A stretch of DNA of 45,581 bases from Oleiagrimonas sp. (GTDB taxonomy: Bacteria; Pseudomonadota; Gammaproteobacteria; Xanthomonadales; Rhodanobacteraceae), in contig NZ_JAQIBU010000178.1 in assembly GCF_027858935.1 (NCBI RefSeq), positions 1-45,581 of the forward strand. Direction: 5' to 3'. This document shows, piece by piece, positions 3,647 to 15,188 of this stretch. Below the pieces are notes generated by a model. That model was given only the letters and a program-made list of their open reading frames with translations, did no database searches and was not told the DNA's origin. How positions within the stretch are numbered: the stretch's first letter is position 1; the number at the start of each line of letters is the position of its first letter. A program made the position numbers and the translations under genes.

Positions 3647-6600
3647 TCAGTCGTTCACGACACTGGCGGCAACCGGCCCTTTCCAGGCCGAGCACCCCAC
3701 TGCGTTGCACGCGCGTAACCAGACCTGCGCGGATGTTGTCGCGTTGGCGATCTGTATCGAATAGCTCAGCGCGGTGGTGGACACGGTGGTACACGTCGAG
3801 CTTCCGTTCAGGCAGTACTTGAGGTCATAGCTCGTCGTTTAGGCCACGCTGGGCCAGTTGACATTCAGATAGGTTCTCTCGGGTGGGCGCAGATCAATAT
3901 ATGACCGATGCTCGACAACCGCGGTGACTGTGGTCGGTGTTTGCGGCGGTACCGTTACCGCCACACTCTGGCTTGCGCTCCAGCCGCTGCAACCGCCGAC
4001 ATTGCAGGCGCGCACTCGATAGCCATAGGTCGCATTGGTCTTGCCGCTGACGGCTTTACTGGTGGCACCGCCGCTGTACACCGTGCTCCAACTGCCGCCG
4101 TTGACCTGCTCCTGCAGGGTGTAGCTGGTTGCGCCACCGACGCTGTTCCAGCTCACCGTGTAGCTGCCGGTGGTATTGGTAGCCGGCACATTCAGACTCG
4201 GCGAACTGCCTGGCGGGAGGGTCACCGCCACGCCGCTGCTGCCGGCCCGGAACGCGCTGCAACCGCTGGCATTGCAGGCCTTTACCTGATAGGTCCACGT
4301 TCCGGTGCTGGTCTCGTGGGCGCTATAGCTGGTGCCGCTGCCGTTGTAGATCGTGACCCAGCCGCTGACACCACTTTCTGCGTGCTGCAGGATGTAGCTG
4401 GTCGCGGTGCTGGACGCTGCCCAACTGACGGCCACCGTGCCGCTGCTGGTCGCCGGGAGGCTGATGCTGGCCGGTTCCGGGGGCACATGCAGCACGCTCA
4501 CGGTCACCGTGGCGCTCCAGCCGGTGCATACACCGGACGTGCAGGACTGTGCCCGGTAGCCATACGTGCCATTGCCCAGGCCACTGCGTGCCACGCTGGT
4601 GCCGCCGCCGTCGTAGATCTGGCTCCACGACCCTCCGTTGAGCTGCTGCTGGACCACGTAGCTGGTCGCCTCCGGCACCGCGGTCCAGCTCACCGTATAG
4701 CTGCCGCTCGTGCTGCTGGACGGGGCGCTCAAGGTCGGTGGCGTGTTGGGCAGGGGCGGCAGCGTGAAGCTGCCCGAGCCGCTCAGTGCATTGTTCGCAT
4801 TACCTACAGGTGAATCGCCGTACACGTACAGCTTCTGGCCCCCATGGCTGGAGCGCATGGACGCGGTCATCGCGATCGCGAAGCGGTAATGCGTGCCGGT
4901 GGTGCCGCAGGCCGTCGCTACGGCTGACCCGCTGCTCTGGTTGGCCGTGGCCGTGGCAATACGCGTGCCGCCACCGCCCGACGGGCCGCCGGCGAAGACC
5001 TCCACTTCGACCGAGTCGAGCAGGCCCAGCCGGTCAGCGTCTCGTTGCCGCTGGCGTCTGCCGTCAGGCCGTCAACGTTGCCGATAATGGCCGAGCTGTT
5101 GGTCGTCACCTTGGCAATCAACCGCTTGCCCATGTGGATGTAATCGCTGGTGTCGCCGGTGTTCGGGCTGTAGTTCATCATCAGCTGCCCGGCCGCGCTG
5201 TAGACCGCATAGGTCTTCGCGCCGTCGGCCGCGATGGTCTTGACCCGGCGGCCGGACGCGTCGTAGCCATAGCTGTCCTTGCCCACCACCTGGTCGAGCT
5301 GGTCGGCCTGGTCGAACAGCAGACTGGTGCTGTCCTTGGCGGTGGTGTTGCCGCGGGCGTCGTAGGTGAAGCTGTGCAGCGTGGAACCGCCGCTGGCAAT
5401 GCTGGCCAGTCGGTTGGTGGCGTCATAGGTGTATGTGGCCGTCACGCCGCCGTTGGTCATATGCGTAAGGTTGTTGAGTGCGTCATAGCCGTAGCCCATG
5501 GAGCCCCACAGGTGGGTATCCGTGGCCGCGGTCAGACGGTTGAGACCATCGTATGTAAACGACGCGTTGCGCGTGCCATCGACCAGATCCGTGATCTGCG
5601 TAATGTTGGCGTTGTTGTCGTAGGTCAGGTCCTCGCTGAAGACCTGGCTGCTGCCTTGCGCGTAGCTGATATTGCGCAGAATCTGGCGGGTGTTTTCTTC
5701 GGCGACATACTCGGACCCGCCCATGTAAGTCAGGTATTCGAGGTGCCCGTCCGGATAGTATGTGGCCCCGCTGGCGTAGGTGCCGGCCTCGGTGGGGCGG
5801 CCCAGCGCATCGGGGGCATACGGGACCACAGTGCCATCCGGATAGGTGGTGCTGGCCAGGGCGCCGTTGGCGTCGTAGGCATAGGTGAACGGCCACTGGT
5901 AGCCGTCGATGGACAGCGTCTCGCCGGTCAGCTCGCCGGTGGCGTTGTGCGTGTAGGACCAGTCGGCGCCGTCCGAGGGCACGCTGGAACTGGCCAGGTT
6001 GCCGCGCGGGTCGTAGTGGAAGCTGGCGCTGCCGACGCCGTCGGGATAGTTGATGCTGAGCACCCGGTTCAGGGCGTCGTACGTGCGCGTGACCTGGGCC
6101 CCTGCGGGAACTTGCGACTGCCCGCAGTCGGTGCCGGTGATGGTCTGCCCCTCGGCGCTCCAGGCGAGGTTGCCGGCCGCATCGTAGGCCATCACCGTGC
6201 TGCCGCTTTCCGGCTCGGTGCGGCGGCACAGGCGCTGCTGGGCGTCGTACACCAGGGTCTTGGTCAGAAGCTCGCCGCCGCCGGACTGGGTGATGGACGT
6301 CGGGTTGCCGTAGATGTTGCGGGTGATGGTCTGGGTGACGCCTTCGGGCGCCTGCACCTCGATCACGCTGTCGTAGGTGGGCGTGTCGAAGACCTGGTAG
6401 CTGGTCGTGGTGACGTTGCCGTTGGGGTCGGTGACCTGCTTGCGCGCACCGCTCAGGTAGGCGGTGGTGGACGTTACGCTGCCGCCTGCAGTTTCGGAAT
6501 CCTGGTCGACTTCGATCTCCCGGCCCAGCGTGTCGTACGAGGTGTGCGTGCCGAGCGTCAGGGCCGACACGTCCGGGCTGCCGGAAACCGGATACGACGC

Positions 6601-9095
6601 GAACGTGGTCTGCCCGCGCCAGTTGTAGGCGTTGGCCGCGGTGACATCCGAACCGCTGGTGCCGCTGATGTAGGTATCGGTCAGCAGCGGACGCAACTCG
6701 GCATCGAAGTACGTTACGTGTCGCGCGTTGCCCTGGCTGACAGTCCGGTCCCAGTGATCGCCGACGATGCCGCGCTCGGTGCCGGTAATGAAGCTGTAGG
6801 TGAAGGTGGTGGGATTGCGTGCCGGCGTGTCGGCCGGGTAGTCGATTCCGGTGACCCTGCCGATCGCGTCGTAGCTGTAGTTTGTCGTGTTGCCGGCCTG
6901 GTCGGTGATGGCCGTGATGTCGCCAAACGTATCGACGGCCAGCGACTCGCTGGTGCCGTCGGAATAGCTTATGGCGGTCGGGATGCCGCGGACGTAGCTG
7001 GACAGGCTGGTGGTGTGGCCGTTGGCATCCGTGAAACTGGCCAGTTGCCCGGCACTGTTGAAGGTGTAGTCCATCACCTTCTGGCCGAAGTGATAGCGTG
7101 TTTGCAGCGTGTCGTTGGACGGATTGTAGTCGTACTTGTTTACAACGGCTTGAACCGAATGGTCCGATGGATTCAGGGTATCCGTTTCCTGCGGCAGACC
7201 CTGGCACCACAGCGTCGTGCCGTCGTAGTACGTGGTCTGGGTCTCGTCAGGAACCTGGCCTGCGATCGAGTTGTAGCGCTTGGTTCTGGTGACCCGGGCG
7301 CATTGGTCGTAGGCCTCCGACAACCAAGTGTAGGTATCGCCATCCTGGACGATCTGCCTTTCCTGCAGCGGCGAATACTCCGTGAGCTGGGCCTGGTTGA
7401 GCCAGGGATACAACAACCCACCCGCCGAAGCAGGCCAAGGCCGTGTGTTCGGGTCCGGGGTCGGATCCGCGTACTGCACATTCTTGACCGATCTCATCAG
7501 GGTGGACGAACCCGCCGCCCCCACGTAGTAGTCGGTTTCCAGCAAGTGGCTTTCGGTGACGTCGAACTTGTTGCTGAAGGTGCGCCGCACCGTGCTGCCG
7601 TCCGGATGGATCACGTCCGTCCAGACTGTGGTCGGGCACGATCCGGTGCAGGTATCCCAACTCGCATTGGGCGCGGAGTATTGATACTGCCAGGTCCGCG
7701 TGGGCACACCGGCGCCCGATACCGCGCGCTGGGTAATCGTGAAGTCGTACCATTCCTTGGGGATATATGCGTACGTCCCCGAATAATCGGCCGTGGCTAC
7801 CCCTTCGGTATTCGCGCAGCGTTGCGGTACAAACGACCGGCCATGCGGCATGCTCTTGACCGTGAAGGTTCCGGTCAGACCCGATGGATGAACGATACTC
7901 GCGGAGATCGCGTCGAGATCTTTCGGGACGCTGACCGAATTGCATGAGCCGCCGGTGGTGGGGTCGACCAGATAAGGTAGCGCTACGAAATTCCCAAGGT
8001 TGTACTTCCATTGACTGCCATCGGGCAGCGTCACGGACTGCAGCGTCGTCAAGCTTCCGCCGTAGAGCGGATTGGTGAATGTCGTGTAGGCATACGTCCA
8101 GGTTCGTGGCGCACCGGCCGATGGCTGCAATGTCACGCTCTGCACATTCCCCGCGCTGTTGTACTGAACGCTCAATGCACGGCCGTCGCTGGCCGTGATG
8201 CCGGTCAGCGCTCCGCCCGAGTTGTAACTGTAGGTCAGAGAATTGCCGAACCGGTCCACGACCTTGGTGACCAGCAGGAAGGCCACTTGCCGGCCGAGAC
8301 TGCTCGAAATCGGCGTATTCCCGTTCCACGTGGTTTGGGATGCGCCCAGCGCCAAACCATACGTCAATTCATTGAAGTAATATTGAGTACCGTCGGGAGC
8401 TTGCGCGATGAATCCATCGCCTGGTTCACCATTGGCGGTCGTGGACTCGGAAATACAGCTCAATCGCCAGTGGTTGTTGGTGACAGCCGGATAGGTTCCG
8501 TTGGTTGCGGCATCCTGATTTTTCAGGATGTCCTGGCTGCCTTGCCCCGGAATGATCAAATGATAATCCTGCCACCATTGCCCTGGGGCCCACTCCGTTG
8601 CGCCAGAGCTCCCAGTGATATTCGTGTAAAGCATTGGCGGCGACCCGAAATCTTGACAGCGCATGTTGCTGCCGTTGCCCACCACCTATCCCGTCACTTT
8701 TTTCCAAGTGCTCGAGACGCTCACCCACGCAGTTGGGGGGTCAAGGTCCGGATACGCGGCAAGTCGATGGTCCAGTAGCCGATCAACTTCTCCGCACTGG
8801 TGGCGGAGGCTGATGCGCCTTTGAGCTCGAACGCACGCGTGAACTGCAAGACTGGGCCATTCCCACGGGCACTGACGTCCGTGACGGTAAATGACAAGTG
8901 GCCGTTGTACAGGCCGATGTTTTCGCCAAAGGGATGCGTTCCCAGCGGATGGATGGCCTGATCGACCCGAATCAGTTTCCTGTATTCGGCTTCCGGCTGT
9001 GCGTTTTGCCCCCATGCAGGCACCACGATCGCAAGTAGAGTCAGCGCAGCCAGGCACACACGTGCCCATCCTTGGTTCGTTTCCATGCCCTTCAT
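3647..9095 (-). pseudogene. giant secreted RHS/YD-repeat protein with four C-terminal Fn3-like repeats, disrupted
   Basis: Signal peptide in ORF 8721-9095; frameshift near the homopolymer at 8735-8740; in-frame TAG at 8686-8688; YD repeats in 4918-8685; frameshift near 5014; Fn3-like repeats (SYTVSW...YRVRACN..GCSGWS) in 3839-5005; in-frame TAA at 3839-3841, after which the fourth repeat continues (TTSYDLKYC...VWLRACNAVGCSAWK) to TGA at 3647-3649. Confidence 0.85.
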
Positions 9096-9695: not shown

Positions 9696-9772
9696 TGGTC
9701 GGGGCGGCGAGATTCGAACTCGCGACCCCTACAACCCCATTGTAGTGCGCTACCAGGCTGCGCTACGCCCCG
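9696..9772 (-). tRNA. tRNA-Pro(GGG)
   Basis: 77 nt CGGGGCGTAGCGCAGCCTGGTAGCGCACTACAATGGGGTTGTAGGGGTCGCGAGTTCGAATCTCGCCGCCCCGACCA; anticodon arm CTACA-ATGGGGT-TGTAG; TTCGAAT T-loop; encoded CCA. Confidence 0.96.
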
Positions 9773-12896: not shown

Positions 12897-14021
<1,125 letters not shown>

Positions 14022-14049: not shown

Positions 14050-14760
14050 TCAGGCTTCGCGGCCGCCCTTCAGTTCGTCCTGCAGCTGCTTGAGCTCATC
14101 GAACTTGCCGGCAGCAGCCAACTTGGACTGCTTCGGCCAGGTCGACGGATCATGCGAGGCGTAGTGGCTGCCGGCTTCGTGCAGGATCTCGCTCAGCTTC
14201 TCGACCTTGGTCTCGGCCAGGTCTGCGAAGCTGGACAGGCCCTGGCCGTGCAGCAGCTCGCCGATCTTCGGGCCGATACCTTCGATGCGGGTGAAGTCAT
14301 CGGACTTCTCCGCAACTGCCTTGATCGCTTCGGCGGCCTTGGGCGCGGGCTTCTTCACCGGTGCCTTGGCGGCCGTCTTGGGCACGGCTGGCTTGGTGAC
14401 GGTACCGTCCAGCGCAGCCTTGGCCTGCGCGGCAATGGCACCGAACGCCTTGATGTCGTGCACCGCGATATCGGCCAGGACCTTGCGGTCGACCTCGATA
14501 CCGGCCTTGGACAGGCCGTTGATCATCCGGCTGTAGGACAGGTCGAACTGACGCGCGGCGGCGTTGATGCGCACGATCCACAACGAACGGAACTGACGCT
14601 TTTTCTGTTTCCGGCCGATATAGGCGTACTGGCCGGCCTTGATGACCGACTGTTTGGCGACGCGATAAACCTTGCGGCGGGCGTTGTAATAGCCCTTCGC
14701 GCGGCCAATGACTTTCTTGTGACGACGACGGGCGACAACGCCCCGCTTGACTCTTGCCAT
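14050..14760 (-). CDS. rplT: 50S ribosomal protein L20 with Ala/Lys/Pro linker and C-terminal helix-hairpin-helix (DUF4332-like) domain
   Basis: Residues 1-~118 are canonical L20 (MARVKRG...AGQYAY...[12 protein letters not shown]...DRKVLAD); the frame continues to 236 aa with [17 protein letters not shown]...[20 protein letters not shown]...LKGG. Confidence 0.93.
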
Positions 14761-14778: not shown

Positions 14779-14976
14779 TTATGCGTACGGCAACATGCGT
14801 GCGACGGACTTGCTGTCGCAATCGCGCACGTGGTTGGTGGCACGCAGACCGCGCTTACGCTTGGTCGACTTCTTGGTCAGGATATGCGACCTGAAGGCAT
14901 GACCGGCCTTGAACTTTCCGGTAGCCGTCTTGCGGAACCGCTTGGCGGCGGCCCGATTGGTCTTGATCTTGGGCAT
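14779..14976 (-). CDS. rpmI: 50S ribosomal protein L35
   Basis: [23 protein letters not shown]...[15 protein letters not shown]...MLPYA. Confidence 0.97.
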
Positions 14977-15188
14977 GAGATGAATCCCTTGGGTATGTTC
15001 TTCGACTGATCCCGGCGGCCGCCCTTGAGCGACGCTTTCCATCCATGCCCGGATCGGCTTGTCATGGCCCGTCCAGATCGGGCCGAACTGCGGATTTTAC
15101 TATGATTTGCTGCTGCAGGGGAAGCCTTGCAGGCAGAACCGGCCCCGAGGTTTCCCGCGAGGCCCGGAGAAAGTGCAGCGCCATGACC

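What the first reader, a model, noticed from the sequence alone, without database searches (positions are those of the whole stretch)
14050..14760. Ribosomal protein L20 doubled in length by a fused helix-hairpin-helix domain
Seen: rplT in its normal operon is 236 aa, made of canonical L20, an Ala/Lys/Pro linker and a ~85-aa domain ([17 protein letters not shown]...[27 protein letters not shown]). Known: L20 is normally about 118 aa. As I recall, this DUF4332-like HhH module occurs as a tail on other ribosomal proteins (e.g. L21, S2) in Bacteroidota and Alphaproteobacteria; I do not know it on L20. Inference: an acquired nucleic-acid-binding module tethered to the ribosome surface near L21, which could also alter L20 autoregulation of rpmI-rplT.
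Basis: partly seen in the sequence, partly recalled or inferred. Interest (0 to 1): 0.7.

Follow-up and report, generated by a model that had tools for sequence, protein, structure and literature searches.

The report
Ribosomal L20 carrying mobile HhH tag
This bacterium's only gene for ribosomal protein L20 really encodes an extra, conserved 84-residue helix-hairpin-helix domain on a predicted flexible linker; the same add-on ends at least ten other ribosomal proteins and several membrane and scaffold proteins in other bacteria, and it likely works as a weak DNA-gripping tether, which is untested.

Summary
Confirmed. rplT (14050-14760, minus strand) encodes 236 aa: L20, a Lys/Ala/Pro linker and an 84-aa HhH-type domain. 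It is the genome's only rplT and only copy of the domain. No stop lies near residue 118 in public contigs. 120 of 120 listed homologs are full-length, and the tail is under purifying selection (dN/dS 0.26). It passes Pfam HHH_5 but not DUF4332.

The fusion is patchy in Xanthomonadales (13 of 301 and 5 of 351 genomes in two families). One genus shows signs of both allele transfer and loss. The domain is a portable tag: 65 of the 80 nearest loci end ten different ribosomal proteins. It also ends RpoC, DivIVA, NrfD and glycogen-binding proteins. This argues against a role specific to the L20/L21 site or to autoregulation.

Best reading (0.45): a position-independent, non-specific DNA tether, like the related domain of Caulobacter PhaH. 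The domain is acidic, so NusA-AR-like protein docking is a serious rival. Five literature searches found no paper. The scan has seen this kind before on other DNA (S2, S6, and a double-HhH on L20). A side finding: a covarying, non-Rfam rpmI leader present with or without the tail.

The parts
14050..14760 (-). rplT, 236-aa L20-linker-HhH fusion (about 25.8 kDa), with stop codon
14407..14760 (-). canonical bL20 core, residues 1-118
   Evidence: TIGR01032 150 bits against cut-off 65.65; PF00453; Foldseek hits are bL20 chains
14305..14406 (-). Lys/Ala/Pro-rich linker, residues 119-152, net charge +6, predicted disordered; length varies 6-81 aa among homologs
14053..14304 (-). 84-aa HhH-type module, residues 153-236, net charge -5, six predicted helices
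14245..14301 (-). helix-hairpin-helix motif with the G-I-G-P-K hairpin (G161, G163, K165 invariant in 120 aligned fusions)
14779..14976 (-). rpmI (bL35), upstream gene of the same operon
15003..15061 (-). conserved structured leader 26 nt before rpmI; candidate L20-responsive element; present in fused and plain genomes alike; context, not part of the fusion
12897..13907 (-). pheS, downstream gene; used with infC and rpmI as the neighbour-gene tree

Best explanation
L20 here carries a portable helix-hairpin-helix tag on a predicted flexible linker, and the tag likely grips DNA weakly and without sequence preference, which would tether 50S subunits and ribosomes loosely to the nucleoid. Steps. 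(1) Shown: the L20 core is intact and is the only L20, so if the protein is made full-length every 50S carries one tag. Full-length protein was not tested. (2) From the literature: L20's C-terminal domain lies at the subunit surface (PMC1888825, passages), so a disordered linker of about 34 aa would project the tag into solvent. (3) Shown: the tag folds independently (predicted) and is kept by purifying selection. (4) Shown: the same tag ends 11 different ribosomal proteins on both subunits, and also RpoC, DivIVA, NrfD, glycogen-binding proteins and membrane anchors. Inferred from this: its ligand is outside the ribosome and generic. (5) Inferred: the ligand is DNA, bound through the G-I-G-P-K hairpin as in other HhH proteins and as reported for the related domain of Caulobacter PhaH. 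The benefit would be positioning or even partitioning of large particles. It is optional, since most relatives lack it.
For: Carriers: 65 of the 80 best genome loci are ribosomal proteins of 10 kinds (L27 20, S1 14, L21 7, L17 7, L15 5, S16 4, L20 3, S2 3, L19 1, S20 1); 3 are NrfD; 12 have no family at 1e-12. Of 8 of those 12 rescanned, 6 are glycogen-binding CBM; L30 and DivIVA are further carriers. P0146 is an RpoC fragment with 3 terminal copies. All 5 genomes checked hold 2-6 matches on different carriers. Hairpin G161/G163/K165 is invariant; HHH_5 is over cut-off. Top fold neighbours include DNA-binding HhH regions of POLQ (Z 7.8), pol iota (6.0) and Rad51 (5.9). The PhaH model matches linker plus tail at E 2.6e-7. 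A review states that PhaH binds DNA non-specifically through its C-terminal HhH and positions PHB granules on the nucleoid (PMC13052382, passages). Tail dN/dS 0.26, 0.15 and 0.08 in three groups.
Against: The module is net acidic: -5 here, negative in 124 of 136 copies, and in 30 of 33 copies of the alphaproteobacterial sister type. NusA acidic repeats, which bind proteins, score as well by fold (Z 6.0-6.5) as the DNA binders, and all Z are under 8. The PhaH match is to a sister subfamily, is far below that family's cut-off, and the primary PhaH paper could not be read; a second paper calls the PhaH domain only a 'predicted' DNA-binding one. Only one canonical hairpin is present, so affinity would be low. 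No binding, localisation or proteomic data exist here.
Confidence: 0.45

Rival explanations
1. The tag is a protein-docking module like the acidic HhH repeats of NusA. It would bind RNA polymerase alpha-CTD or another common partner, or bind copies of itself, and so link ribosomes to polymerase, to each other or to membrane carriers of the same tag.
For: Net acidic in 124 of 136 copies. NusA AR domains are among the top fold matches (Z 6.5, 6.3, 6.0; Foldseek ranks 1 and 3, not significant). SAM domains appear at Z about 4.3. Tandem arrays of up to 11 matched stretches exist. Several carriers occur per genome.
Against: G000 has a single copy, and 14 of 301 family genomes have only a membrane-anchored copy with no L20 copy found, so a ribosome-to-membrane pairing of like domains is not required. 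A polymerase partner makes little sense for phasin, glycogen-binding or respiratory carriers, or for RpoC itself. The G-I-G-P-K hairpin is the canonical DNA-contacting form (established knowledge of HhH motifs).
Confidence: 0.25
2. The tag binds RNA (nascent mRNA or rRNA) and helps capture messages or helps assembly.
For: 81% (65 of 80) of the nearest loci are ribosomal proteins. Nop5/Prp31 RNA-binding domains and kinetoplastid mitoribosomal proteins appear at Z 4.5-5.6. The linker is basic.
Against: Carriers lie far apart on both subunits (recalled ribosome topology), so there is no common RNA site. Membrane, granule and scaffold carriers fit poorly. The domain is acidic.
Confidence: 0.13
3. 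The tag is a solubility or chaperone-like appendage, or close to neutral: an acidic folded domain that offsets very basic ribosomal proteins and is tolerated at exposed C-termini.
For: Core charge +24 against tail -5. Full-length L20 tends to aggregate (PMC1888825, passage). The tag is absent from most relatives and was lost in 6 of 21 whole L20 genes of genus g63, leaving a linker stump.
Against: Invariant hairpin, Trp and Gln residues across unrelated carriers. dN/dS well under 1. It recurs on acidic or membrane carriers such as S1 and NrfD. The long allele appears to have spread between lineages.
Confidence: 0.12
4. The tail acts locally at the L20/L21 site or retunes L20 autoregulation of rpmI-rplT.
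For: It is attached to the C-terminal domain, which is the operator-binding domain in E. coli (PMC1888825, passages). L21 is also a carrier. A candidate leader exists upstream of rpmI.
Against: The leader motif is found in 18 of 21 fused and 43 of 51 plain genomes whose locus reached rpmI, and in the two main families in 17 of 19 fused and 43 of 45 plain, with no pattern that I could see separating them. Nine other ribosomal carriers have nothing to do with this site.
Confidence: 0.05

Closest known systems
Long-form bL21 (NCBIfam NF008915/NF008916, PRK12278) and long-form uS2 (NF008966, PRK12311)
   Same: Ribosomal protein + low-complexity linker + C-terminal HhH-type module. The tail alone matches these models at E 2e-4 to 0.01.
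   Different: The carrier is L20. The tail is of the Bacteroidota-like subtype (H-D-P-x-T-W-P motif) rather than the alphaproteobacterial subtype (F-K-G-R-I-x-R motif) seen. No function is known for either.
L20 fusion models NF051450 (sunset domain variant) and NF011109 (PRK14537, L20/unknown domain)
   Same: L20 with an extra C-terminal domain; shows that L20's C-terminus tolerates add-ons.
   Different: Both match only through core and linker (128 against 375 bits; 103.5 against 187) and neither matches the tail alone: a different domain.
Caulobacter phasin PhaH (NF045508; Salinas et al. 2023, seen only through PMC13052382 and PMC12678847)
   Same: A/K/P linker + C-terminal HhH domain of the sister subtype (E 2.6e-7); anchored on a large particle.
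   Different: The anchor is a PHB granule, not a ribosome. 31 bits against a cut-off of 250. DNA binding has been reported for PhaH only.
Urf1 / protein-O / protein-3h and NuoE C-terminal domain of Rhodobacterales (PDB 8yy9_O, 9wqv_a)
   Same: The only PDB sequences clearly related to the tail (E 2e-8 and 9e-5); same anchor-linker-domain design.
   Different: Membrane complexes. The C-terminal domain was not resolved in either map and its function is called obscure or unknown (PMC12079452, PMC13066640, passages).
NusA acidic repeats AR1/AR2 and Rad51/RadA N-terminal domain
   Same: Similar small acidic HhH fold (Z 5.9-6.5, about 65 residues).
   Different: Sequence identity 14-23%. The tail has an extra C-terminal helix pair with its own invariant residues. 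No significant Foldseek match.

Membership tests
bL20 (TIGR01032 / PF00453) | score over the curated cut-off across the whole model | tested here: met
   150.3 against 65.65 bits, positions 1-114 of 114; 148.1 against 30.8
bL20 (TIGR01032 / PF00453) | sole copy, in infC-rpmI-rplT-pheS context | tested here: met
bL20 (TIGR01032 / PF00453) | full-length protein built into 50S | not testable with these tools
   needs ribosome proteomics
HHH_5 (PF14520) | score over gathering cut-off, G-h-G hairpin | tested here: met
   29.8 and 31.8 against 27 bits; hairpin invariant
HhH DNA-binding domains | non-specific DNA binding | not testable with these tools
   motif and fold only; acidic charge
DUF4332 (PF14229) | score over cut-off on the 122-position model | tested here: not met
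   18.8 and 20.2 against 23.2 bits; only positions 54-96 match
L20 sunset-domain variant (NF051450) | sunset domain after L20; 375-bit cut-off | tested here: not met
   128.3 bits, match stops at 161 of 219; tail alone does not hit
L20/unknown domain fusion (NF011109, PRK14537) | its C-terminal domain; 187-bit cut-off | tested here: not met
   103.5 bits, match 1-122 of 232 only
Ribosomal proteins with a fused HhH-type tail (PRK12278 L21, PRK12311 S2 kind) | ribosomal core + low-complexity linker + homologous terminal module | tested here: met
   tail hits those models' C-terminal parts; tail profile finds the alphaproteobacterial L21/S2/NuoE domains in 30 of 30 loci at E <= 1e-3
Phasin PhaH (NF045508) | N-terminal granule-binding region; 250-bit cut-off | tested here: not met
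   31 bits, positions 125-209 only
NusA acidic repeat (AR1/AR2) | fold and alpha-CTD binding | tested here: inconclusive
   Z 6.0-6.5, tied with other HhH folds; binding not tested

The most novel reading that the evidence does not exclude
The module is a general-purpose nucleoid-address tag that bacteria append to whichever large particle they need near DNA (ribosomes, polymerase, respiratory complexes, glycogen and PHB granules, DivIVA). On ribosomes it is a genetic switch for whether ribosomes mix with the nucleoid or are excluded from it. Its richest lineages here, Alphaproteobacteria and Bacteroidota, are the ones where cell-filling nucleoids were reported (bioRxiv 10.1101/479840, passages). 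Xanthomonadales sister species with and without the L20 tag would be a natural experiment.
Probability: 0.17. Interest if true: 0.8.

Novelty: new member of a known kind. Interest (0 to 1): 0.42.

Why it matters
Bacterial ribosomal proteins are treated as near-invariant, yet one small folded domain has been added to the ends of at least 11 of them and to other large complexes, with no paper found on the pattern. Whatever it binds cannot depend on where it sits on the ribosome, which points to an unstudied link between ribosomes and something outside them, most likely the chromosome. The L20 case is ordinary as an instance. It is useful because named, cultured Xanthomonadales carry it (Oleiagrimonas citrea, Solilutibacter tolerans, Lysobacter oculi), this genome has no second copy to mask a deletion, and close kin have full, stump and plain alleles.

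Tried and rejected
Assembly artefact: rejected.
DUF4332 membership and the two existing L20-fusion models: not met.
One tagged protein per ribosome: rejected; S1+L27, S20+L30 and L19+L21 co-occur in single genomes.
Spread of one whole fused rplT across the order: rejected; fused L20 cores are not one clade (AU p 1.6e-6).
Phage as vector: no relative in viral contigs with one 8-residue pattern; a weak test.
Solved structure of the domain: none. Foldseek had no match at E <= 0.001; VIA Z <= 7.8; the ESM Atlas gave only hypothetical/DUF4332/HHH_5 clusters, best 0.90. No ribosomal PDB chain matched the tail profile.
RNA-run contigs cover parts of core and tail but cannot show transcription, since DNA carry-over was not excluded.
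No Rfam family at the leader; no consensus sigma-70 promoter called.
A PhaH sequence was sought in 301 genomes and none passed the cut-off, so its charge could not be compared directly.
One search used a wrong frame for PheS; this was corrected and only the L20 lengths and tails are used.
Literature: searches returned 0 papers; (25 of 77 listed; 12 of 121 listed) no listed paper held 'helix-hairpin-helix'. Subscription journals and supplements were not searched.

Full report
OBSERVATION. The minus-strand ORF 14050-14760 encodes 236 aa, in the usual thrS-infC-rpmI-rplT-pheS-pheT order. Residues 1-118 are bL20. Residues 119-152 are a Lys/Ala/Pro linker of net charge +6, and 153-236 a domain of net charge -5. 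The domain passes HHH_5 (29.8 against 27 bits) but not DUF4332 (18.8 against 23.2). G000 (95% complete) has one rplT and one copy of the domain. The protein is 78% identical to an Oleiagrimonas citrea protein, so the host is likely Rhodanobacteraceae.

NOT AN ARTEFACT. Four runs of one study were laid. A DNA contig spans the whole stretch in X2, and another crosses the core-linker-tail junction in X1, without indels. Nine substitutions fall in the ORF: 5 silent, 4 missense, no stop. These runs may include the source sample. The independent evidence is homology: 120 of the 120 best hits cover 97-100% of the query. An alignment of the query and 119 of them has 14 invariant tail columns, including G161, G163, K165, P205, W208 and Q211, while the linker varies from 6 to 81 aa. 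Nei-Gojobori dN/dS for the tail is 0.26 (8 genomes; core 0.12), 0.15 (6 genomes) and 0.08 (3 genomes); pairs are not independent and one pair reached 0.91. AlphaFold2 gives a confident core, a disordered linker and a confident six-helix tail.

DISTRIBUTION OF THE L20 FUSION. In the window's genus, 8 of 16 whole L20 genes are fused (19 genomes searched; 2 without a match, 1 fragment). In the family, 29 of 301 genomes hold the module: 13 on L20, 14 on a short membrane-anchored protein, 2 weak. In a second family, 5 of 351 have it on L20. An even sample of the order gave 7 of 401 genomes: 3 with it on L20, 2 on L21, 2 only on membrane proteins. So the L20 form is rare and patchy.

HISTORY. I built a tree of flanking genes (PheS, IF3, L35) for 82 genomes, 21 of them fused; the sample is enriched for fused ones, and 2 duplicate loci were dropped. 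It needs at least 8 changes of state. Fused L20 cores are not one clade (AU p 1.6e-6). The 41 L20 tails among 136 module copies are not rejected as one clade (p 0.71), on only 84 columns. In genus g63, 21 whole L20 genes split into 6 fused, 6 of 143-145 aa with a linker stump but no domain, and 9 plain; no domain remnant lies downstream of the stumps. The 12 long forms are one clade on L20 DNA (98/95) but are rejected as a clade on flanking genes (p 7e-7); the group was named after seeing the first trees. The simplest reading is one or a few origins, then in-place transfer of the long allele between kin and repeated loss. Ancestral presence with many losses is not excluded.

THE MODULE IS A PORTABLE TAG. 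It has 6,545 clusters at 50% identity, and the top hits are tandem arrays. A genome-collection scan (9 of 64 parts scanned; best 80 of 571 kept; mostly Bacteroidota) placed it at the C-terminus of ribosomal proteins in 65 of 80 loci: L27 20, S1 14, L21 7, L17 7, L15 5, S16 4, L20 3, S2 3, L19 1, S20 1. Three are NrfD and 12 had no family at 1e-12. Six of 8 of those rescanned are glycogen-binding CBM proteins; L30 and DivIVA are further carriers. An RpoC fragment ends in three copies and one L20 in two. Five of 5 genomes checked hold 2-6 matches, with S1+L27, S20+L30 and L19+L21 together. A sister subtype occurs in 65 of 301 Pseudomonadota genomes at E <= 1e-7, on L21, S2, NuoE and membrane proteins as judged from their N-termini. 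This ranking favours copies close to the query, so 65 of 80 is not a family-wide share.

MECHANISM. Carriers scattered over both subunits and outside the ribosome imply a ligand that is generic and independent of position (inference). The hairpin is canonical HhH. Fold neighbours are HhH regions of POLQ, pol iota, Rad51 and NusA AR domains, all at Z 5.9-7.8 and effectively tied; Foldseek found nothing significant. The only functional lead is Caulobacter PhaH, whose model matches linker plus tail at E 2.6e-7. A review says it binds DNA non-specifically through this domain and spaces PHB granules on the nucleoid (PMC13052382, passages); another paper calls the domain 'predicted' DNA-binding (PMC12678847, passages); the primary paper is not held. 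DivIVA, glycogen-binding and membrane carriers fit a DNA tether. Against it, 124 of 136 copies are net acidic, as are 30 of 33 sister-type copies, which suits NusA-AR-like protein docking. Acidic HhH domains such as alpha-CTD do bind DNA (recalled). The two PDB relatives were unresolved in their maps (PMC12079452 and PMC13066640, passages). I put DNA tether at 0.45, protein docking 0.25, RNA binding 0.13, solubility or neutral 0.12, local or autoregulatory 0.05.

AUTOREGULATION. In E. coli the C-terminal domain of L20 represses rpmI-rplT through sites at the infC/rpmI junction (PMC10931766, PMC1888825, PMC3616713, passages). Here a hairpin with an invariant purine-rich internal loop lies at 15003-15061. 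In 52 distinct sequences, 9 of 15 pairs show two-sided changes and 95% of cells pair, against 85% in shuffles and at most 56% when slid; the pair-count measure alone does not beat its shuffles (93 of 500), and the sequences were picked by the motif. It is single-copy in 4 of 5 genomes searched and has no Rfam match. The motif is in 18 of 21 fused and 43 of 51 plain genomes whose locus reached rpmI. This gives no sign that the tail changed regulation, though it cannot exclude a change in affinity.

WHAT IS KNOWN. NCBIfam models long L21 and S2 with this kind of tail, and two L20 fusions with other domains, but not this one. Paper searches returned none; none of the listed papers held 'helix-hairpin-helix'; the F. 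johnsoniae ribosome paper does not mention it (PMC7797042, passages). Subscription journals and supplements were not seen. Earlier notes of this scan record the same kind on S2, S6 and, as a double-HhH, on L20 of an Acidobacterium, and other domains on L20; I did not re-test them.

VERDICT. Real, conserved, and a new carrier of a tag that databases know but nobody appears to have studied: new member of a known kind, interest 0.42. The boldest reading left open is that the tag sets ribosome-nucleoid mixing. Cell-filling nucleoids were reported in Alphaproteobacteria and some Bacteroidetes (bioRxiv 10.1101/479840, passages), the lineages richest in the tag here, but I could not test the match species by species (probability 0.17, interest 0.8).

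Noticed in passing
window 15003-15061 (-): Conserved, covarying hairpin with an invariant purine-rich internal loop 26 nt before rpmI, in two Xanthomonadales families; single-copy; not in Rfam; no paper found. Candidate L20-responsive leader. Its GGA motifs also recall RsmA/CsrA sites (recalled motif). A -10-like hexamer lies at 15094-15099, and a second small hairpin between it and the leader also appears to covary.
   Followed up: partly
L197, L200, L202, L203, L204, L206 (genus g63): L20 of 143-145 aa that keeps the start of the linker but has lost the HhH domain: natural tail-loss alleles.
   Followed up: yes
P0146 (1205 aa), residues 947-1205: RNA polymerase beta-prime fragment ending in three tandem copies of the module.
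   Followed up: partly
L227:1744-2700 (-); L075, L084, L095, L098, L110, L118: The module also ends a DivIVA protein and glycogen-binding (AMPK1_CBM/CBM48) proteins in Bacteroidota, which suggests pole and granule tethers analogous to PhaH.
   Followed up: partly
L132-L144, L161, L034, L035: Short proteins with one predicted N-terminal membrane helix, a Pro/Ala linker and the module; common in genus g25 (12 of 20 genomes).
   Followed up: partly
L009, L011-L016: Plain L20 in the window's genus ends at 117 aa, two residues short of the 119-aa form of other genera, which could be the scar of tail loss.
   Followed up: no
window 4918-8685 and 8721-9095 (-): Long RHS/YD-repeat-like ORF preceded by a short ORF that looks like its N-terminal part, next to tRNA-Pro(GGG) at 9696-9772; judged from the translation only.
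   Followed up: no
L191 (G565:C3): rplT appears in two frames (residues 1-76 and 75-117), a frameshift or assembly error in an essential gene.
   Followed up: no
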